The notes under the pieces were generated by a model, which did not search any database, had not been told where the DNA came from, and saw only the letters and a program-made list of their open reading frames with translations. Of a stretch of 41,345 nt of DNA, positions 28,581-39,107 are shown in pieces. The DNA is from a virus (lineage: Duplodnaviria; Caudoviricetes): positions 1-41,345 of the IMG/VR virus record IMGVR_UViG_3300012943_000044, one strand, 5' to 3'. The first letter of the stretch is position 1. Every line of letters starts with the position of its first letter. The position numbers and the translations under genes were made by a program.

Positions 28581-30740
28581 CTACGGTCTGAGCGTGACTC
28601 CGGCGTAAGGGCGGGCAGTGGCCCCGGTGAACGGGCGCGGGATCCGCTTACTGGGCCGAACCGAGAACGCGGCACCGGCGCCGTGCGCCGTACCGGCGTT
28701 CGCCGAGCCGGGCCCGCCGATCAGCACGCTCGGGTCGAGCGCCGTACCGGTGGCGGCGGCGACTCCCGCGAAGGCCTGCACCGCGGCAGCCGGGTCGGCT
28801 GCCGTACCGGTGCCCGCAGCTTCGACGGCGGGGGCGTTGGTGGCGGTCGAGGTGGAGACGGTGGCGCCGGAAGCGACACCGACGGCGGCGGCCGCGCTGG
28901 CCGCTGCCGTGAGTGCCGTTGCCGGGCCGTACCCGACGCCCGCCGCGGCGGCCTCGGTGGCCGGGGCGCTCGCGGACGAGCTGGTCGACACGGTGGCGTT
29001 CGCGGCGACACCGGCAGCGGTGGCCTCGGTGGCGTTCGCCGTGGTGGCGGAGGTGGTCGAAACCGTCGCGGCGTAGGCGACGCCGGTTGCCTCGACCGGG
29101 TTGTCGGCGATCAGGTCCAGGCTGATGCTCGACCCGGCGTCCCATTCGGCCGTACCGGCCGCCGTGGCCAGACCGCCTGCGGCGGCCGCCGCGACGGTCG
29201 GGCTCTGGGCCGCGCCGGAGCCGGACGGCACCGACGGCAGCCCGGCCACGGTGGCCGCCGGACCCAACGCCGAGCCCGACCCTGGAGCCTCCGCCGCGGC
29301 GGTCGTGGCAGTGGTGGAGACGCCGAGCGCCGTACCGGTGCCCGCGGCCTCGGTGGCGGGGGCGTTGGTGCCCGCGCCGACCGTTGCGAACACGACGTCG
29401 ACGAAGTAGCAGGAGCCGCCGCCGGCTGAGTTCGGGTAGCCGAGCGTCGAGTCGATCCGGTACGTGCCCTGGAAGATGGTGAAGCCGCCGACCGTGTCGC
29501 CGTTGGCGTCGGCGGTGATGTCCCCGTTGACAAGGTCGGAGCTGAAGAACGACGACGTGGTGACGTAACGGCCGTCGCCGGAGAAGATGACCGCCCGATA
29601 CGGGACACCGGCGGTGACCGGGACCGGGGTGATCGGCACCGTGTTCCACGCGCTCGGTGTCGGCGCTACGCCCATCGTCGCGCTGCCGAGCAGCGTGCCC
29701 GTTCCCGGGTCGGACGCGTCGACCGAGTACAGGGCCACGGTGTACGTACCGGAGACGCTGCTGCTGGCGTAGAACGCGACAGCGGTGACCTCGCCGTCCT
29801 GCGCGAAACGGACCGTCGTGGCGGTGGTGATGCCGGGCGCACCGTCGGAGAAGCTCCCCGCCGGGGTCTCGCTGGTGAACAGCGACTGCTCGCCGCCGCC
29901 ACCGCCGGGCGTGCTCACCGTCGCGTCGTACGCCGCTCCGGCCGCCGCAGCTTCACCGGCCGAGGCTGTCGCGGCCGATGACGTCGTGGCGTTGTTCGCC
30001 ACACCCGCAGCCGCGGCCGTGGCGGCATTGCCCGCCGGCGACGCCGCGGGAGACTGGGCCGCGCCCGCGGCGGTGGCCTCGGTGGCGTTCGCGTCCGTGC
30101 CCGACGGGGCGGTGCCGAGGACCTCGACGGCGGCGACGGTGAACGCCGTGCCGGCCAGGCCGGTGGTGCCGTAGGCGGTGGTGCCGGTGGCGCCCTGGTC
30201 GTCCCACCGTCCGACGACCGCGGTGGCGCCGGTGTTCGTCTGGGCGATCAGCTGCGTCTGCCCGGCCGGGGTCCAGCCGATACCGCCGGTGCCGGACGCC
30301 GACCAGTCCGCCGACCAGAACACGATCGCCGAGTTCGCCAGCGTGCGGGTGACGCTGACCGTCTCGGTCGCGTTCACCCCGGCCTTGTTGGTCCGCACGA
30401 AGCCGGTGGAGCCGCCGTACGCGAACGCGTAGATGCCGCGCATCGCCACACCGGTCCCGCCGGAGCGGGTCGCGGTCACCGCCGACGAGCCGGAACCCGC
30501 AGCGGTCGCCTCCCACGCGTGCAGCCAGCACGAGTTGCTGGGCGTGACAGCGGAGCCGAGCGCGGTGAACGTGAGCCCGGTCGCAGTCGGGGTGGCCAGG
30601 GTGAAGCTCTGATCCTCGGTCATCGCCACGACCAGGATCCGGTCGCCCGAATTCCATGTCAGGGTGCCGGTTACCTCGCTGACCGCGGCGTTGTCCGTGT
30701 AGTCCGAACTCGTACTGGAGGTCAGCGTCGGAGCCGCCAC
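28581..30740 (-). CDS. Virion appendage/fibre protein with DUF4082-like domain and Ala/Thr repeats
   Basis: SLF...VRFAQDGEVTAVAFY...WN.VP...YP......YFVDVVF, flanked by repeats like ANATEATAAGxAxxATVST. Confidence 0.75.
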   Translation of the reverse strand: MAAPTLTSSTSSDYTDNAAVSEVTGTLTWNSGDRILVVAMTEDQSFTLATPTATGLTFTALGSAVTPSNSCWLHAWEATAAGSGSSAVTATRSGGTGVAMRGIYAFAYGGSTGFVRTNKAGVNATETVSVTRTLANSAIVFWSADWSASGTGGIGWTPAGQTQLIAQTNTGATAVVGRWDDQGATGTTAYGTTGLAGTAFTVAAVEVLGTAPSGTDANATEATAAGAAQSPAASPAGNAATAAAAGVANNATTSSAATASAGEAAAAGAAYDATVSTPGGGGGEQSLFTSETPAGSFSDGAPGITTATTVRFAQDGEVTAVAFYASSSVSGTYTVALYSVDASDPGTGTLLGSATMGVAPTPSAWNTVPITPVPVTAGVPYRAVIFSGDGRYVTTSSFFSSDLVNGDITADANGDTVGGFTIFQGTYRIDSTLGYPNSAGGGSCYFVDVVFATVGAGTNAPATEAAGTGTALGVSTTATTAAAEAPGSGSALGPAATVAGLPSVPSGSGAAQSPTVAAAAAGGLATAAGTAEWDAGSSISLDLIADNPVEATGVAYAATVSTTSATTANATEATAAGVAANATVSTSSSASAPATEAAAAGVGYGPATALTAAASAAAAVGVASGATVSTSTATNAPAVEAAGTGTAADPAAAVQAFAGVAAATGTALDPSVLIGGPGSANAGTAHGAGAAFSVRPSKRIPRPFTGATARPYAGVTLRP

Positions 30741-30749
30741 GCAGGCCTC

Positions 30750-31622
30750 CTACGGCGAGGGGATCGACTCACCGTCGACGTAGGCGTTGTCGGTCCAGGT
30801 GATACCGGTCGTCTGCTCGACGTCGATCGGGCCGAACGCGTGCTCACGGGTCCACCGGCACCCGAGCACGGTGACGTTGGTGATGTCACCGGCGCCCGAG
30901 TCGCCGCGGAACTGCATGGCGTACCCGCCCCGGTCGAGGCCGCAGTACCGCACGTCGATGTCCTGCGCCGCCCCGGCCTCGGTGCCCACACGGAACGCCT
31001 GAGACGCGCCCGGGCCCGTGCCGGCGGAGATCCAGCAGCCGTAGAACGTCGACCGGCCGATGTCGGTGCACTGCACACCGTCGGAGTGCAGATCCTCGGT
31101 GGCGCCGTACGCGACGAAGTTGGAGCGCAGCCCGACGTTGTAGTACCAGCCGGACCAGCCGTCCTCCGCGCCGCGCATGTCCGAGTCGATCACCCAGCAG
31201 TAGCCGCCGAGCAGGCACTTGTCGGTGGCGCCTGCACTGCCGCCGTCGAAGTTGCACCGGTTGAACACCACCAGCGGCGCCATGACGTCCGCCGTCGCGC
31301 CGGCGCCGTCGACCTCGACGCACCAGTTCCCGACGCCCTCGAACGAGCATTCTTCGAACAGGTAGGTCACACCGGAACCCGGCGCTGGGGTGATGGTGTC
31401 GGTGAAGCGGATGTGCCGCCACACGCTGACGTCCAGCTCGGCGCTGGCCCCGGCGACCGGGTGGGTGACGGTGAACGTCTCGGTCGCCGTCGGGGAGCCG
31501 AGAGTGGACCGGCTGGCGAGCGAGGTGCCGGTCGGGACACCGACCTGCGAGCCGCGGGTGAACGCGGCCGTCGGCGCACCCGACTGGTTGAAGCGGACGA
31601 AGTTCTTGACCGCGATGGGCAC
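30750..31622 (-). CDS. Right-handed beta-helix (pectate-lyase-like) protein
   Basis: Stacked FEECSF/FNRCNF/IDSDM strands; AEDG and HSDGVQ motifs; GGAGG RBS, GTG 31622. Confidence 0.7.
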   Translation of the reverse strand: MPIAVKNFVRFNQSGAPTAAFTRGSQVGVPTGTSLASRSTLGSPTATETFTVTHPVAGASAELDVSVWRHIRFTDTITPAPGSGVTYLFEECSFEGVGNWCVEVDGAGATADVMAPLVVFNRCNFDGGSAGATDKCLLGGYCWVIDSDMRGAEDGWSGWYYNVGLRSNFVAYGATEDLHSDGVQCTDIGRSTFYGCWISAGTGPGASQAFRVGTEAGAAQDIDVRYCGLDRGGYAMQFRGDSGAGDITNVTVLGCRWTREHAFGPIDVEQTTGITWTDNAYVDGESIPSP

Positions 31623-31630
31623 CGAGCCTC

Positions 31631-32263
31631 CTAGGCGCGAGGCTTTCCCGGCCCCCATGGTCGAAGCGGGGTGGTCAGCGCCTGCTCGACGCTCCATCCC
31701 GCCTTGTTGATCCGGTGCCAGACCGTCCGGTGCGGCAGGCCGACCTGGCGGCACCACTGCGGAAGCGTCTGCTTCATGCCGCGCCACTCGACCAGCACGG
31801 TCGATCGGCGGTTGTTGCACTGTTCGATGCGCGTCGCCCACCGGCAGTTGTCCGGCGAGTAGGGACCGGCGTTGTTGGTCCGCTCGATTTGATGGTTCTT
31901 CGATGGGCGCTGACCCATGTCGGCGTAGAAATTCTCGAACGACTGTTCCCAGCGGCTACAGACCCGGATGCCTCGGCCGCCATAGTCCGCATAGCTGTGG
32001 TCGTTCGGGTCGTTGCAGCGGCCTCGCATGTTGACCCAGACCGTGTACTCAGGGGATTTGCGGAGGCGGTGCTTGGCTTTGATGGCTGAGCCGCATCCGC
32101 AGCTTTTCGTGTGGCCATTGCGGAGTACCGCTCCGCGAACCTCGGTTACCTTGCCGCAGTCGCACGTGCACTTCCACCATGCGACGCCGTTGCGATTCTC
32201 AGCACGCTCCGTGACGGTCAGTCTGCCGAACCTCTGGCCTGTAATGTCGTCGAACGTCGCCAT
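31631..32263 (-). CDS. Free-standing HNH-type homing endonuclease
   Basis: DITGQRFGRLTV, WKCTCDCG, TKSCGC, YGGRGIRVC, IERTNN.GPYSPDNCRWAT...NN; ATG 32263. Confidence 0.88.
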   Translation of the reverse strand: MATFDDITGQRFGRLTVTERAENRNGVAWWKCTCDCGKVTEVRGAVLRNGHTKSCGCGSAIKAKHRLRKSPEYTVWVNMRGRCNDPNDHSYADYGGRGIRVCSRWEQSFENFYADMGQRPSKNHQIERTNNAGPYSPDNCRWATRIEQCNNRRSTVLVEWRGMKQTLPQWCRQVGLPHRTVWHRINKAGWSVEQALTTPLRPWGPGKPRA

Positions 32264-32310
32264 GCTTCTAGTGTACGACAACGCATGAACAGGTACCAGG
32301 TACTGCCAGC

Positions 32311-35517: not shown

Positions 35518-36042
35518 TCAGACCCCCTTGGTCATGGAGCCGGGCGGGAACATGCCCGCGAACTCGCGGTCGAATTCCTTGTCGTCCAGGTCGGCATAGC
35601 CCGACGCGGCGATGGCCAGCGCCGAGTTCGGCGTCAGGCCCTCGATGAGCGCCTTCGTGCCCTCCGGGTCGGCGGCCCACAGCTTCGCGAAGTGCTTCTT
35701 CTGAGCCGGGGTGAACTTGCCCTGCTCGACCGCCGACGCGATGACCTTGTCGGCCTCGTCGCGCTTGGCCTGGTCGACGTGGGCGGCGAGACGCTTGATC
35801 GTGTTCTGCGTCTCCTCCCACACCGACGAGGCGATCAGGACGGTGCCGGGAGTGTTGGCCGACGAGGCCGACACGAGCTGCGGTTCCGGCACCGGGTTGG
35901 GCTCCGGGGTCGGGTTGGGAGCCGGCTGCGGCTCGGGCTGGGACGCGACGAGTCCGGCAGTCGCGAGCGCTGCCTTGACCTCATCGTCGGAGGCCTCGGC
36001 CGGCAGGCCGACCGCCTCGCGGAGCTTGGCTGCGTCAGGCAT
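35518..36042 (-). CDS. Nested in-frame scaffolding protein (Mu gpZ-like)
   Basis: GAAAGGGAG RBS upstream of in-frame ATG 36042 (MPDAAKLREAVGLP). Confidence 0.7.
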   Translation of the reverse strand: MPDAAKLREAVGLPAEASDDEVKAALATAGLVASQPEPQPAPNPTPEPNPVPEPQLVSASSANTPGTVLIASSVWEETQNTIKRLAAHVDQAKRDEADKVIASAVEQGKFTPAQKKHFAKLWAADPEGTKALIEGLTPNSALAIAASGYADLDDKEFDREFAGMFPPGSMTKGV

Positions 36043-37305
36043 GCCCGGGGCTCCCTTTCTGTCGGACGGATGGTCAGCCCCCGGAGGGGGTGATTCTGGT
36101 GCGCTGGCCGCGATCCACTCGGCGCCGGATTCGGCGGCAGCGGCGGACACGAGCTGGCGCAGATCGGTGAGCGACTTCAGCACCGGCATCCCGGGTGGGG
36201 TCGAGCCGAGAAGGCCGAGCCGGGTGAGGACGAGGCCGTACTCGCGGCCCTGGAACTTCACGCCGGTAACACCCTCGATGGAGCGCTTCGGCCAGCGGGC
36301 CGGGGCGGCGGCGTGCACCCAGTCGTCCAGGTCGACCAGGTCGCCGAGGAGCACCGGGCCGCGGCCGTCGACCTGGTAGCGGATGTTCGACACCCAGCCG
36401 AACGCCGGCTCGCCGTCGAACCGGGAGTCGAGGTGCCCGAAGCCGAGCGGCACCCGCTCACTGCCCGACGCCGCGTAGAACTCGGCGGCGTCACGGAGCA
36501 TGTCGGGGGTGAACTCGCGCTCGCCGGAAGACAGCTGCCAGGTTCCGGGACGGGCCAGTTCGACGCCGAGGAGCTCGGCCATGTGCCCTCCATGGGTCGT
36601 GCGCATGGTGGATGCGGTGACCGGGTCGGTGGCGATCAGATTCGAGATCGCCTTGTCGAACTTGCTGATCGCTGACGCCTGGGTGATCTGGAAGTTGTCG
36701 CGCCCTTCCGTGCTGCCGCGGGGGGCAGGGTCGAGCTGCAGCAGCCATTCGCCGCCGGGGCCGAGACTCTCGCCGCCGGACGCATAGTCGCCGCCCTCTT
36801 CGCGGGTGAGCGTCCAGGTCACGTCACCCCACGCGGCGCCGCGAATGACGCCTGATGCGATGTCCGTTTCCGGGTCGGGCCATTCGGATTGCGGAAGTCC
36901 GTTCTTGTGGGCCTGCCGGAGCTGGGCCCGGAAGTCGGAGACGCTCTTCTTGCCGTCCGCGAGTGCGTCGCTGAGCACCTGCTGCAGTTGCCGGGCGCCC
37001 GCGGCGTCGAGCTCGACTGTGCGGCCCTTGTCGCCGGCCTGCCATCTCCTGGCGTCTTCCGGGTGAACCACTCCGAGGCGGAGCCGGGTGCCGGCCGGGC
37101 CGGAGACGCTCGCAAGTACGGCTGTCGTGTCGCCGTGGGCGTCGCTGATTCTGGCGCTGCCGCCGAACGTCTCGCCGGGTCCCAGCTTGATGCGTCCCGC
37201 CAGCTTCAGCGGGTCGGCGGCCGGGCCCGGGATCCCGTCGGACCACTGCCCGTCCGGGTCGCGCTTCTGGCCCGGGCTCCACTTGGCGACGACGGAATCG
37301 CTCAT
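35518..37305 (-). CDS. Mu gpI-like capsid maturation protease/scaffold with 241-aa N-terminal extension
   Basis: GVELARPGTW, LGFGH.D...PAFGWV, RSIEG, LLGSTPP; helical scaffold C-terminus; internal RBS+ATG at 36582 and 36042. Confidence 0.85.
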   Translation of the reverse strand: MSDSVVAKWSPGQKRDPDGQWSDGIPGPAADPLKLAGRIKLGPGETFGGSARISDAHGDTTAVLASVSGPAGTRLRLGVVHPEDARRWQAGDKGRTVELDAAGARQLQQVLSDALADGKKSVSDFRAQLRQAHKNGLPQSEWPDPETDIASGVIRGAAWGDVTWTLTREEGGDYASGGESLGPGGEWLLQLDPAPRGSTEGRDNFQITQASAISKFDKAISNLIATDPVTASTMRTTHGGHMAELLGVELARPGTWQLSSGEREFTPDMLRDAAEFYAASGSERVPLGFGHLDSRFDGEPAFGWVSNIRYQVDGRGPVLLGDLVDLDDWVHAAAPARWPKRSIEGVTGVKFQGREYGLVLTRLGLLGSTPPGMPVLKSLTDLRQLVSAAAAESGAEWIAASAPESPPPGADHPSDRKGAPGMPDAAKLREAVGLPAEASDDEVKAALATAGLVASQPEPQPAPNPTPEPNPVPEPQLVSASSANTPGTVLIASSVWEETQNTIKRLAAHVDQAKRDEADKVIASAVEQGKFTPAQKKHFAKLWAADPEGTKALIEGLTPNSALAIAASGYADLDDKEFDREFAGMFPPGSMTKGV

Positions 37306-38570
37306 GGCGTCGCGTTCGGGTCCAGGCCCGGAATCGTGGGCTGGACCGGCGGGGCCGGGGGCGGGGCGTTCGGGTCGACGGCGGGCAGGCCGTATTGCTG
37401 GCGCACCGACTGCTTCAGCACCTCGTCGGGGCTGATCAGGCCCGCGTCGGCGAGCGCCTTCAGCGCCTGCGCGGTGGCGGCCTGCCGGGAGCCGATCTCG
37501 TCGAAGACGACGCGCGGCGCGGGCTCGGACTCACCGAAGTTGACGTCGACGAGATCCTCGACGATGTGCTGCGTCGCGGTGTCGGCGATCTGCTGGGCGA
37601 GGGTCTGCAGCGACAGGGTGAAGAAGTCGGCGAACGTGGTGCCCAGCGCCCAGCTGCCCGTCTGGGTGCCAAGGTTCAGGAAGTGGGCCAGGACGGCCCG
37701 GCCGATCTGCTCGTCGTGATATCGGATCGACGGCAGCGCCTGCGGCAGGGTGCCCTCGACGCCGCGCAGCACCATGTCGGCGCCGTTCGGGACCGCCGAG
37801 CCGGCGGTCTCGCCGGCCCGCCATGCCTTCGCCATGGCCAGGCCCTTGCTCAGGTCCTGCTCGTCCTCGCCGGCCTTGTACAGCGGGACGCCCATGCCGT
37901 TGCGCTCGATCGTCTGCGCGTCGACGCGCAGCAGCCGGTCCTTGATGAGCCAGTTCTTGTAGGCGGGGCGCAGCAGCGAGCGCCCCTTCCAGTTGCCGCC
38001 CTCGCGCTGGTGCACGTAGCCGACGAGGCGTGTCACAGGGATGGGGCGCTGCCGGGCCGAGGTCATCGTCGAGTACTGCGTGATGGAGACCAGGCCGCCG
38101 TCGGGCGCGACCTTGATCTCCTCGATGGTCCGCGGCATCCGCGGCGCCAGCTTGCGCAGGTGCGCGCGGCCGCCGCCCGGATCGACCCGGTAGACCTGCT
38201 CGAAGAACATGTGCCCGAACGGCAGCATCAGCAGCGCCTGTTCGAGGTGCTCCGCCCAGGAGAACCGGTCGCGGGTCCGCGGCACCGGCTTCGGCTCCTT
38301 ACCGACCACCGGCAGGCCGAGCTCGTCCGCGACGAACTGCGCGACCCGTGCCTTCGAGCCGGCGGGGTCGATGCGCCAGGGGGTCCGCTGCACCGGCAGT
38401 GAGACGGCACGGAGCACCGAGACGATCTGGGCGTCTTGTGTCCTCATTTGGTCGTAGACGTTCACCGACTGCGGCCACTGCAGCTCGGGGGTCGTCTCGT
38501 TCTCGTCGTACGACCAGAACAACGAGCCGGAGGTCGCGTAGCCGATCTCATTCACGGGGGCAGTTGCCAT
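37302..38570 (-). CDS. Portal protein (Mu gp29/DUF935-like)
   Basis: YDQMRTQDAQI, MLPFGH.FFEQVY, G.SLLRPAYKNW..K, ERNGMGVP, GSWALG. Confidence 0.92.
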   Translation of the reverse strand: MATAPVNEIGYATSGSLFWSYDENETTPELQWPQSVNVYDQMRTQDAQIVSVLRAVSLPVQRTPWRIDPAGSKARVAQFVADELGLPVVGKEPKPVPRTRDRFSWAEHLEQALLMLPFGHMFFEQVYRVDPGGGRAHLRKLAPRMPRTIEEIKVAPDGGLVSITQYSTMTSARQRPIPVTRLVGYVHQREGGNWKGRSLLRPAYKNWLIKDRLLRVDAQTIERNGMGVPLYKAGEDEQDLSKGLAMAKAWRAGETAGSAVPNGADMVLRGVEGTLPQALPSIRYHDEQIGRAVLAHFLNLGTQTGSWALGTTFADFFTLSLQTLAQQIADTATQHIVEDLVDVNFGESEPAPRVVFDEIGSRQAATAQALKALADAGLISPDEVLKQSVRQQYGLPAVDPNAPPPAPPVQPTIPGLDPNATP

Positions 38571-38624: not shown

Positions 38625-39107
38625 ATGGCCCCACCGCGTCACATCCGCGATGTCAACTGGCTTCTACTGCGAGTCCAGATCGATCCAGCGACCGGCTGCT
38701 GGATCTGGCAGGGCACCTGCAACCACAAGGGCTATGGCCTTTATCGCGGAACTGACTACGGGGGCGTCTACACGAGAAGCGCGCACCGGCTCGCGCTGGA
38801 ACTCAAGCTCGGGCGGCCCATTCGCCTCGGCCTGCACGTATTGCACTCGTGCGACAACCCGCCCTGCTGCAACGGTGAGCACCTCCGCGAGGGCACCGTC
38901 TCGGACAACCAGCGCGAGTCGTACGACAAGGGTCGTCACATTCCGACTCGCGGAGAGTTGAGCGGCCACGCAAAGCTCACGCGGGCGGAGGTCGCCGAAA
39001 TACTCGCGGCACTCGAACGAGGCACCTACCAGCGCGTTCTCGCACGTCAGTACGGCGTCGACCAGGCGCAGATCAGCCGAATTAAAAACGGAAAGGCGTG
39101 GCTATGA
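38625..39107 (+). CDS. HNH homing endonuclease with C-terminal HTH, antisense to late operon
   Basis: GCWIWQG...GYG...AHR...HVLHSCDNPPCCNGEHLREGT..DN; KLT...LARQYGVDQAQISRIKNGKAW. Confidence 0.92.
   Translation: MAPPRHIRDVNWLLLRVQIDPATGCWIWQGTCNHKGYGLYRGTDYGGVYTRSAHRLALELKLGRPIRLGLHVLHSCDNPPCCNGEHLREGTVSDNQRESYDKGRHIPTRGELSGHAKLTRAEVAEILAALERGTYQRVLARQYGVDQAQISRIKNGKAWL

What the first reader, a model, noticed from the sequence alone, without database searches (positions are those of the whole stretch)
35518..37305. Three-tier 'cargo-protease-scaffold' ORF: unknown 241-aa domain fused in frame to the capsid protease
Seen: one 595-aa ORF has three in-frame starts, at 37305 (ATGA-coupled to portal), 36582 (GGAGG RBS, at the start of the Mu-gpI-like protease) and 36042 (GAAAGGGAG RBS, scaffold). 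The first 241 aa resemble nothing I recognise, begin with KWSPGQKRDPDGQW, contain several A/T-ending codons, and occupy the slot where a MuF minor head gene often sits (none is present). [VI]-x-A-S motifs fall near the domain borders: VTAS (aa 229-232), IAAS after the protease, VSAS, and IAAS near the C-terminus. Established: Mu gpI/gpZ nested protease-scaffold, and MuF proteins carrying variable cargo. From memory, R-D-x-x-G-x-[WF] motifs recur in head-associated phage proteins. Inference: the phage loads a swappable effector into the prohead by fusing it to the protease, releases it by self-cleavage, and may inject it (e.g. anti-defence).
Basis: partly seen in the sequence, partly recalled or inferred. 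Interest (0 to 1): 0.8.

Follow-up and report, generated by a model that had tools for sequence, protein, structure and literature searches.

The report
Cut-out PUR-fold cargo on capsid protease
A soil phage has fused a mobile, tagged protein domain, predicted to fold like Pur-alpha, to the front of its capsid-maturation protease, between short motifs that the protease likely cuts, so the domain is likely packed into the virus head and may be delivered into the next host cell.

Summary
Observation confirmed: one open 595-aa frame with three plausible starts; a second study's contig shows the same fusion. Residues 31-225 form a mobile domain with a predicted Pur-alpha/Whirly (PC4-like) fold (pLDDT 87.5; Z 11.2), acidic across its family. 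Its 155 relatives ride on portals, MuF, and Mu-, S78- and Clp-type proteases, and, untagged, on a helical carrier in integrative-element-like loci. The residue two before the RDxxGxW tag tracks protease type: Ala 32/36 (Mu), Arg 10/10 (HK97/S78), Gly 4/4 (Clp). Hence predicted cuts at VVA|K8 and VTA|S232. Of 116 related proteases, 45 carry an N-terminal extension of varied kinds. Packaging, cutting, ejection and anti-defence activity are all untested. Cargo-protease fusions are already predicted in print (Iyer 2017, 2022), and this scan noted similar protease-cut cargo on other DNA. I found no report of this domain, its fold or this tag. New variant of a known kind.

The parts
37302..38570 (-). 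Mu-type portal gene; its TGA overlaps the ATG of the fused ORF (ATGA)
   Evidence: PF06074 E 2e-61; same ATGA coupling in L001, L006, L030
35518..37305 (-). 595-aa ORF: cargo cassette + prohead protease + scaffold
   Evidence: identical across the joint in run X2
37282..37293 (-). V5-V6-A7|K8, predicted N-terminal cut site (P1 = Ala)
   Evidence: Ala at this position in 32 of 36 tags from Mu-type phages, Arg in 10 of 10 HK97/S78, Gly in 4 of 4 Clp; cleavage inferred
37243..37281 (-). Tag, aa 9-21, [FYW]-[NDS]-P-x3-R-D-x2-G-x-[WF]; function unknown, small low-confidence hairpin in the model
   Evidence: broad pattern in 106 of 150 relatives, shuffled mean 5.5; also heads unrelated cargos; only copy among 20 window genes scanned
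36631..37215 (-). Cargo domain aa 31-225: conserved N-terminal segment plus two beta4-alpha repeats, predicted PC4-like type I (Pur-alpha/Whirly) fold, acidic family
36610..36621 (-). V229-T-A|S232, predicted release site between cargo and protease
   Evidence: [VI]xA[AS] at this joint in 37 of 45 extended proteases and downstream of 14 of 15 domain copies in Mu-type loci
36580..36591 (-). GGAGG ribosome-binding site and internal ATG (M242): protease can be made without cargo
   Evidence: same site in cargo-free L005, L007, L027 and in fused L001, L006, L030
36136..36582 (-). Mu gpI-type prohead protease domain aa 242-390; H291, R341, S342 invariant
   Evidence: phrog_3894 E 1.7e-56; 100% in 116 cores; catalytic role of His/Ser recalled
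36103..36114 (-). I398-A-A|S401, predicted protease/scaffold cut
   Evidence: A400 in 100%, S401 in 73% of 116 cores
35518..36059 (-). Scaffold (aa 422-595) with its own RBS and start; further candidate cuts at VSA|S481 and IAA|S568
   Evidence: PF10123 aa 404-564; Met plus purine-rich site in 8 loci listed; A567 97%, S568 80%, but A480 only 65%

Best explanation
Residues 8-231 are a mobile tag-plus-domain cassette, predicted to have a Pur-alpha/Whirly fold, that is likely carried into the prohead by its fusion to the protease-scaffold, likely cut free there by the phage's own protease at V-x-A sites on both sides, and would then be ejected with the DNA to act in the newly infected cell. Shown: the open fusion, the nested starts, the domain's mobility among head proteins, the bracketing motifs and their covariation with protease type. 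Predicted: the fold. Inferred: ribosomes re-initiating after the portal make a minority full-length form while the internal RBS makes plain protease, which would limit cargo copy number; the scaffold tail recruits it; cuts at A7|K8 and A231|S232 leave a 224-aa folded product, too large to leave as propeptide fragments do. Least certain: the target. Because the family is acidic and non-enzymatic in appearance, I favour binding or decoying a host nucleic-acid-binding or defence protein over binding DNA itself. Odds by step: packaged and cut about 0.75; ejected and acting in the host about 0.5; anti-defence in particular about 0.3.
For: Relatives sit on every kind of head chassis: of 144 scanned (of 150 listed), 35 carry a head-protein Pfam (PF04860 portal 6, Portal_Mu 4, Mu-like_Pro 11, S78 5, Clp 4, MuF 5), with co-cargo such as ADP-ribosyltransferase (4), Nudix (3), 2H (5) and PG-binding (16) domains. 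Of 30 distinct loci showing both a Mu-type portal and protease, 11 carry the domain: 5 on the portal tail, 3 before the protease, 2 after it, 1 as a separate gene. P1 code: Ala 32/36 Mu, Arg 10/10 HK97/S78, Gly 4/4 Clp, Glu 2/3 in a fourth type; proteins with several tags use one residue in 15 of 22, permutation mean 4.3, 0 of 10,000. P0272 is a 63%-identical cassette on an HK97-type portal with Arg in place of Ala. A second, unrelated module is preceded by [VI]-x-A in 21 of 22 Mu-type cases and by Arg in the one HK97-type case. Purifying selection against L001: dN/dS 0.40; dS 0.66 against 0.20-0.46 in flanking head genes, suggesting separate exchange. The domain also occurs untagged behind a ~100-aa helical carrier in three bacterial genomes, in one directly after an FtsK translocase near an integrase, which points to a job in a recipient cell rather than in the capsid shell. 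Precedent: T4 internal proteins are cut by the prohead protease and ejected (PMC9026906, passages).
Against: No experiment shows expression, packaging, cleavage or ejection. Prohead-protease propeptides generally leave the head (PMC10052503, passages). The record looks like a siphovirus (tape measure and tail tube by recalled resemblance), and Iyer 2022 reports head-packaged NAD systems mostly in myoviruses. The P1 counts are small outside the Mu class, are not phylogenetically independent, and use the portal type as a stand-in for the protease in several rows; Ala-rich linkers are common in high-GC proteins. The protease model was poor (pLDDT 52) and matched a herpes protease only weakly (E 0.28). 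No PADLOC or anti-defence family match. Repeat 1 of this copy is slightly basic (+4), which fits nucleic-acid binding. Transfer of the carrier-fused forms is inferred from context in one locus only.
Confidence: 0.55

Rival explanations
1. The cassette is packaged and cut as above but works as a nucleic-acid-binding internal head protein (like Pur-alpha, PC4 or SPP1 gp7): it organises or leads the packaged DNA, or coats single-stranded DNA just after entry, with no host protein target.
For: All 8 Foldseek hits at E <= 0.001 are Pur-alpha/PURA; Z 10.2-11.2. PC4-like domains bind ssDNA/RNA on their beta-sheets (PMC7549692, passages). Conserved R38, R76, W88, W159. Presence in conjugative-type elements, which move DNA, also fits.
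Against: Median pI 4.8, net -5.5 per 100 aa, 5% above pI 7 among 135 family stretches; the paralogue in P0033/P0048 is more acidic still. A shared fold shows no function: SsgB shares it (Z 6.0) and recruits FtsZ (PMC8061694). Many close relatives lack the domain.
Confidence: 0.22
2. The extension is a disposable propeptide or assembly aid: it is cut off and lost or degraded during maturation, or acts in the producing cell late in infection, and never reaches the next host.
For: Propeptides of 111-254 residues are removed from SPN3US head proteins (PMC10052503). 39 of 150 relatives are 340 aa or shorter, so many may be stand-alone genes. 71 of 116 protease records have no extension.
Against: It is a compact domain (pLDDT mostly above 90) whose only internal V-x-A-S is in a core strand. 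It recurs beside known effector-type enzymes and is confined to head modules or carrier fusions in the loci resolved.
Confidence: 0.13
3. The domain is a mimic of the host's SsgA/SsgB-like proteins and interferes with FtsZ recruitment or sporulation in filamentous actinomycetes.
For: SsgA-like 3cm1 aligns at Z 6.0, rmsd 6.0, 119 residues. Nearest named relatives are prophages in records titled Paractinoplanes and Dactylosporangium; Micromonospora has SsgB. PG-binding domains are the commonest co-cargo.
Against: The fit is much worse than to Pur-alpha and within the range the tool calls a common arrangement. No SsgA family among Pfam families matching two or more of 50 members. The profile finds no chromosomal SsgB in G001 or G002.
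Confidence: 0.07
4. The fusion is an accident: a sequencing error or a recently lost stop codon joined a separate gene to the protease.
For: The internal RBS and Met are intact, so the protease does not need the fusion; L026 has the domain as a separate gene in this slot.
Against: Same sequence in an independent study; same fusion in L001 (66% identical cargo), L006 and L030, all ending in V-x-A-S before the protease; 18 of 45 extended proteases have no Met near the protease start, so they exist only as fusions.
Confidence: 0.03

Closest known systems
Phage-type polyvalent proteins and effector fusions to head proteins (Iyer et al. 2017, PMC5512222; 2022, PMC9503650; passages read)
   Same: Variable domains joined to MuF, portal or the capsid-processing serine peptidase; assemblin-like peptidase C-terminal to the cargo, predicted to process it; co-cargo ART, Nudix, 2H; a shared pool between phages and conjugative elements.
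   Different: This cargo has no recognised enzyme fold. 'Whirly' and 'PC4' do not occur in the 2017 main text; its FTP supplements listing LPD1-40 were not seen. I saw no tag or protease-matched P1 code in the passages read.
T4 internal proteins IPI-III and Alt with capsid targeting sequence (PMC9026906, passages)
   Same: Non-essential, variable head cargo cut by the prohead protease; ejected; IPI is anti-restriction.
   Different: T4 IPs are separate, basic proteins and the targeting propeptide is removed. Here the cargo is fused to the protease, acidic, and the conserved tag lies on the predicted mature side of the cut.
Mu gpI/gpZ protease with nested scaffold (nesting and portal gpH cleavage recalled, not read; gp32 named as protease in PMC3447690)
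   Same: PF10123/phrog_3894 match, Mu-type portal, nested scaffold start with RBS.
   Different: A third, upstream tier carrying cargo; no MuF gene; integrase-bearing phage of high-GC actinobacteria.
PC4-like type I domains: Pur-alpha repeats I-II, Whirly, MRP1/2 (PMC7549692, passages)
   Same: beta4-alpha-linker-beta4-alpha in one chain; Z 11.2, rmsd 3.3 A over 135 residues with human PURA.
   Different: 9-15% identity, no Pfam match, extra conserved N-terminal segment (aa 31-45), long helix insert, acidic family; the phage members named in the passages read are type II (T5 PC4 homologue, PP7 coat).
MuF polymorphic toxins (Jamet et al. 2017, PMC5576092, passages)
   Same: Variable cargo encoded right after the portal in temperate phages; five relatives of this domain are MuF fusions.
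   Different: No MuF domain, no toxin domain recognised, no small immunity ORF after the cargo.

Membership tests
Mu gpI/gpZ-type protease-scaffold | Profile match to the family | tested here: met
   phrog_3894 aa 242-390, E 1.7e-56; PF10123 37.6 bits over cut-off 25.2
Mu gpI/gpZ-type protease-scaffold | Conserved His and Ser (catalytic role recalled) | tested here: met
   H291 and S342 invariant in 116 cores
Mu gpI/gpZ-type protease-scaffold | Nested in-frame scaffold start | tested here: met
   Met plus purine-rich site in the window and 8 loci printed, of 15 examined with a strict pattern; translation not shown
Mu gpI/gpZ-type protease-scaffold | Assemblin (herpes/HK97) fold | tested here: inconclusive
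   model pLDDT 52; KSHV protease among top rows at E 0.28
Mu gpI/gpZ-type protease-scaffold | Self-cleavage during head maturation | not testable with these tools
   motif evidence only
Phage-type polyvalent proteins | Mobile domains joined to head proteins, peptidase C-terminal to cargo, head-module context | tested here: met
   definition from passages of PMC5512222
Phage-type polyvalent proteins | Cargo is a catalogued effector or LPD domain | tested here: inconclusive
   no Pfam, PHROG, NCBIfam or PADLOC match; the paper's LPD alignments were not seen
Phage-type polyvalent proteins | Delivery into the host with the DNA | not testable with these tools
   no virion or infection data
PC4-like type I (PUR/Whirly) fold | beta4-alpha twice in one chain, superposable on solved members | tested here: met
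   independent Atlas model of P0044 ranks PurA clusters first, TM 0.53-0.55, under that tool's bar for naming a family
PC4-like type I (PUR/Whirly) fold | Single-stranded nucleic-acid binding on the beta-sheets | tested here: inconclusive
   only bulk charge tested: family acidic, repeat 1 of this copy +4; no coordinates for surface mapping
MuF polymorphic toxins | MuF domain | tested here: not met
   no PF04233 in the record; none on P0001
MuF polymorphic toxins | Small immunity ORF directly after the toxin | tested here: not met
   cargo runs into the protease; next gene is PF09956 cement protein
T4 internal proteins with CTS | Targeting sequence is the removed N-terminal propeptide | tested here: inconclusive
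   the conserved tag follows the predicted cut; what it binds is unknown
SsgA-like proteins | Sequence family match and close structural fit | tested here: inconclusive
   no such family among the 25 of 58 shown; Z 6.0, rmsd 6.0

The most novel reading that the evidence does not exclude
Actinobacterial phages run a modular capsid-loading system in which a universal tag is retuned at one residue to whichever head protease the phage owns (Ala for Mu-type, Arg for HK97-type, Gly for Clp-type, Glu for a fourth), and one of its commonest payloads is an acidic Pur/PC4-fold protein that is delivered into new host cells both by virions and by integrative conjugative elements, where it decoys a host single-stranded-nucleic-acid sensor or defence protein. 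This would give a new anti-defence family, the cleavage specificity of Mu gpI-type and phage Clp proteases, and a portable loading tag.
Probability: 0.25. Interest if true: 0.82.

Novelty: new variant of a known kind. Interest (0 to 1): 0.58.

Why it matters
It makes three open points directly testable. (1) Which bond Mu gpI-type prohead proteases cut: the comparison predicts V/I-x-A|small, like herpesvirus assemblin (recalled), and Gly for Clp-type. (2) Whether domains fused to head proteins are really released and ejected, which the polyvalent-protein papers predict but, in the passages I read, do not show for protease fusions. (3) What a widespread, unannotated PUR-fold cargo does on entry. 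Cultured hosts exist: a record titled Dactylosporangium carries the cassette on a prophage portal and one titled Paractinoplanes carries a related prophage without it. The score is held down because the architecture is predicted in print, the scan has noted similar cases elsewhere, and function rests on context.

Tried and rejected
tblastn of aa 1-241 against 50,697 phage records: no match. Profile search of PDB sequences: nothing significant. BFVD fold search: one weak hit at E 3e-4, TM 0.31; not used. Complex prediction of aa 2-40 with capsid protein and protease domain: no answer, score 0.00; no evidence either way. Repeat 1 against repeat 2 by HHalign: probability 41%, E 3e-4, so the internal repeat is weak at sequence level. 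The extension of P0108 looks like an ADP-ribosyltransferase by eye but has no Pfam or NCBIfam hit. The P0033/P0048 cargo first looked unrelated; it is a distant paralogue (probability 93%, E 3e-7), so it is weaker evidence of swapping than it seemed. P0119, P0120 (portal read-through, probably frameshift artefacts) and P0121 (weak) were dropped before the 116-protein counts; 16 duplicate or near-duplicate loci and L008 were dropped. 'No extension' in protein records may reflect gene callers starting at the internal ATG or short contigs; only L005, L007 and L027 show an empty slot in DNA, and L002, L004 and L053 have cargo on the portal instead (output partly cut). The scaffold row failed, and its protease row was aligned with end gaps. 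The order-level genome search found only the seed genome (1 of 401) but scored 7 candidates per genome. A WXG100-like identity for the helical carrier is recalled only; Pfam and PDB gave no support, and its profile hit 3 of 150 relatives. Codon-bias argument rejected. Papers on Mu gpI/gpZ and on prohead/herpes protease homology were not found or not held.

Full report
Setting. The window is a whole 41,345-base virus record, 70% G+C, about 90% complete, with a tyrosine recombinase gene. Its closest named relatives are prophages in records titled Paractinoplanes and Dactylosporangium, so the host is probably a Micromonosporaceae-type actinomycete (inference). The head module reads terminase, HNH gene on the other strand, Mu-type portal, the 595-aa ORF, cement protein, capsid protein. 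No MuF was found.

Observation. The frame, the three starts and the motifs are as described. A contig from an independent study spans the cargo and the joint with two substitutions and no gap (run X1 may be the source and is not counted). Six [VI]xAS motifs exceed chance (none of 10,000 shuffles reached six). The codon argument is weak: the cargo differs from the portal but not from the protease.

The slot is variable. A search with the protease domain gave 119 proteins. After dropping three, 45 of 116 have an N-terminal extension of 40 aa or more: the same domain (P0044), a distant acidic paralogue (P0033, P0048), DUF6582, PG_binding_1 or others. On a quick tree the eight labels need 25 changes (minimum 7, shuffled mean 41.5), and the window's protease is not sister to P0044's; labels came from patterns, and 'none' may be a gene-calling effect. 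In DNA, L005, L007 and L027 have the portal stop overlapping the same GGAGG-ATG with nothing between, so the internal start looks ancestral and the cassette was inserted upstream of it (inference). Against L001, the cargo shows dN/dS 0.40 and higher dS (0.66) than portal (0.45), protease (0.46) or capsid (0.20).

The cargo is a mobile family. phmmer found 155 relatives among 1.84 billion representatives. Of 144 scanned, 35 carry a portal, MuF or head-protease Pfam, of six kinds, and many carry effector-type co-cargo. The 14 viral loci found with the domain's profile show it on or beside head genes wherever neighbours could be recognised (by eye, for some). Among 30 loci with Mu-type portal and protease, 11 have it, most often on the portal tail. 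In 301 genomes of G001's family, 10 matched. Besides G001, three are head-protease fusions (Mu-type by HMM; Clp- and S78-like by eye), three weak hits were unresolved or probably spurious, and three have the domain, untagged, behind a ~100-aa helical carrier. One of these follows an FtsK translocase near an integrase and an SNF2 helicase; another is one of three tandem carrier genes with different tails.

Fold. AlphaFold2 with 50 sequences gives mean pLDDT 87.5 and two beta4-alpha units. All 8 Foldseek hits at E <= 0.001 are Pur-alpha. The wide search has one chain at Z >= 8 among 48,161, Pur-alpha (Z 10.2, rmsd 4.1, 138 aligned), then Whirly, MRP, DUF proteins and an SsgA-like protein; human PURA gives Z 11.2, rmsd 3.3, 135 aligned. 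The Atlas's own model of P0044 agrees. This is the type I PC4-like topology of PMC7549692 (passages). The family is acidic (median pI 4.8, 135 stretches), and its conserved residues are mostly hydrophobic or Gly with a few Arg, Asp and Trp, so I see no enzyme signature. Fold does not give function; nucleic-acid binding stays a live rival.

Cut-site code. [VI]xA[AS] lies at the cargo/protease joint in 37 of 45 extended proteases, against 177 of 4,029 background windows, and follows 14 of 15 domain copies in Mu-type loci. The tag occurs in 106 of 150 relatives (shuffled mean 5.5); a second, His-rich tag occurs in 19. The residue two before the tag is Ala in 32 of 36 distinct Mu-type cases (Val or Ile two further back in 25), Arg in 10 of 10 HK97/S78, Gly in 4 of 4 Clp and Glu in 2 of 3 of a fourth type (first seen, later rows added). 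Fisher p = 2.5e-7 for Mu against HK97, but the rows are related and the class is sometimes taken from the portal. Multi-tag proteins are consistent in 15 of 22 (permutation mean 4.3). An unrelated module shows the same switch. The simplest reading is that this residue is P1 for each phage's own protease. That herpes assemblin cuts V/L-x-A|S and HK97 gp4 cuts after Lys is recalled, not read. Predicted sites here: A7|K8, A231|S232, A400|S401, A567|S568, perhaps A480|S481.

Mechanism (inferred). Coupling to the portal stop makes some full-length protein, the internal RBS makes plain protease-scaffold, and the third start makes scaffold. In 18 of 45 extended relatives no Met lies near the protease start, so the fusion is obligatory there. 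The scaffold tail would draw the fusion into the prohead; cutting would leave a 224-aa tagged domain inside. Its spread over unrelated head chassis and onto integrative-element carriers argues for a role in the recipient cell. What the tag binds is unknown.

Comparison with print. Passages of PMC5512222 place assemblin-like peptidases at the C-termini of polyvalent proteins and describe effector fusions to MuF and portal. Passages of PMC9503650 name Nudix fusions to the capsid-processing peptidase as probably packaged and injected. Passages of PMC7302621 report MuF-protease and MuF-VIP2 fusions in Microbacterium phages. Passages of PMC5576092, PMC9026906, PMC10052503, PMC8061694 and PMC3447690 were read as cited; PMC4406740 held none of my terms. 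No whole paper or supplement was read; the LPD files of Iyer 2017 could bear on novelty. Ten searches of the held library showed no paper on this domain, on a PUR-fold head cargo or, among 25 of 36 listed, on DUF6582; none could search the tag itself, and subscription journals are mostly missing. Earlier AI notes of this scan describe protease-cut cargo and tags in other phages; none matched this sequence or fold. They are leads, not support.

Verdict. It works like polyvalent or T4-type head cargo; it is not a MuF toxin. New here, as far as I could search: the domain family, its fold, the tag with a protease-matched P1, and its second route on integrative elements. New variant of a known kind; interest 0.58.

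Noticed in passing
L106:9372-11132, L107:8176-12722, L108:9372-10871; P0204, P0211, P0253: A ~100-aa helical N-terminal carrier with variable C-terminal cargo, including the PUR-like domain; three tandem paralogues in L107; next to FtsK and integrase in L106. Possibly a polymorphic delivery system of actinomycete integrative elements. No Pfam or PDB match.
   Followed up: partly
portal tails of L002, L004, L053, L054, L069, L075 and others: A ~70-aa Trp/His-rich module with no Pfam hit ends many portal proteins and is preceded by the same predicted cut motif.
   Followed up: partly
19 of 150 relatives: A second, His-rich tag, H-L-P-G-x-H-x-Q-x-x-H, stands in for the RDxxGxW tag before the same domain.
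   Followed up: partly
P0122, P0127, P0136, P0139, P0145: A short H-x-L-x-x-G-x-C-x-x-C motif, sometimes repeated, lies before the tag or at protein ends; possible metal site.
   Followed up: no
P0054, P0085, P0074 and others: DUF6582 is the commonest N-terminal cargo of this protease family (27 alone and 2 with PG_binding by pattern, of 116); PG_binding_1 inside head proteins is unexplained.
   Followed up: partly
P0283; L011:5533-8367; L013:5147-7960: Cargo-protease-capsid single-gene fusions with Glu before the tags; P0283 carries both paralogues of the PUR-like domain.
   Followed up: partly
window 38625-39107 (+): HNH endonuclease with C-terminal HTH on the opposite strand between terminase and portal.
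   Followed up: partly
window about 31631-32270 (-): A second homing-endonuclease-like ORF among the head-tail genes (resemblance recalled; no NCBIfam hit).
   Followed up: no
window 28581-31841 (-): Two long genes (719 and 363 aa, Ala/Thr-rich) sit between head-completion and tail genes; no NCBIfam hit.
   Followed up: no
L107:16390-19152: Lsr2 DNA-binding, Pycsar-effector-like and Nudix domains near the carrier genes.
   Followed up: no
P0119, P0120: Portal-protease 'fusions' in the protein set whose middle reads out of frame; probably assembly frameshifts.
   Followed up: no
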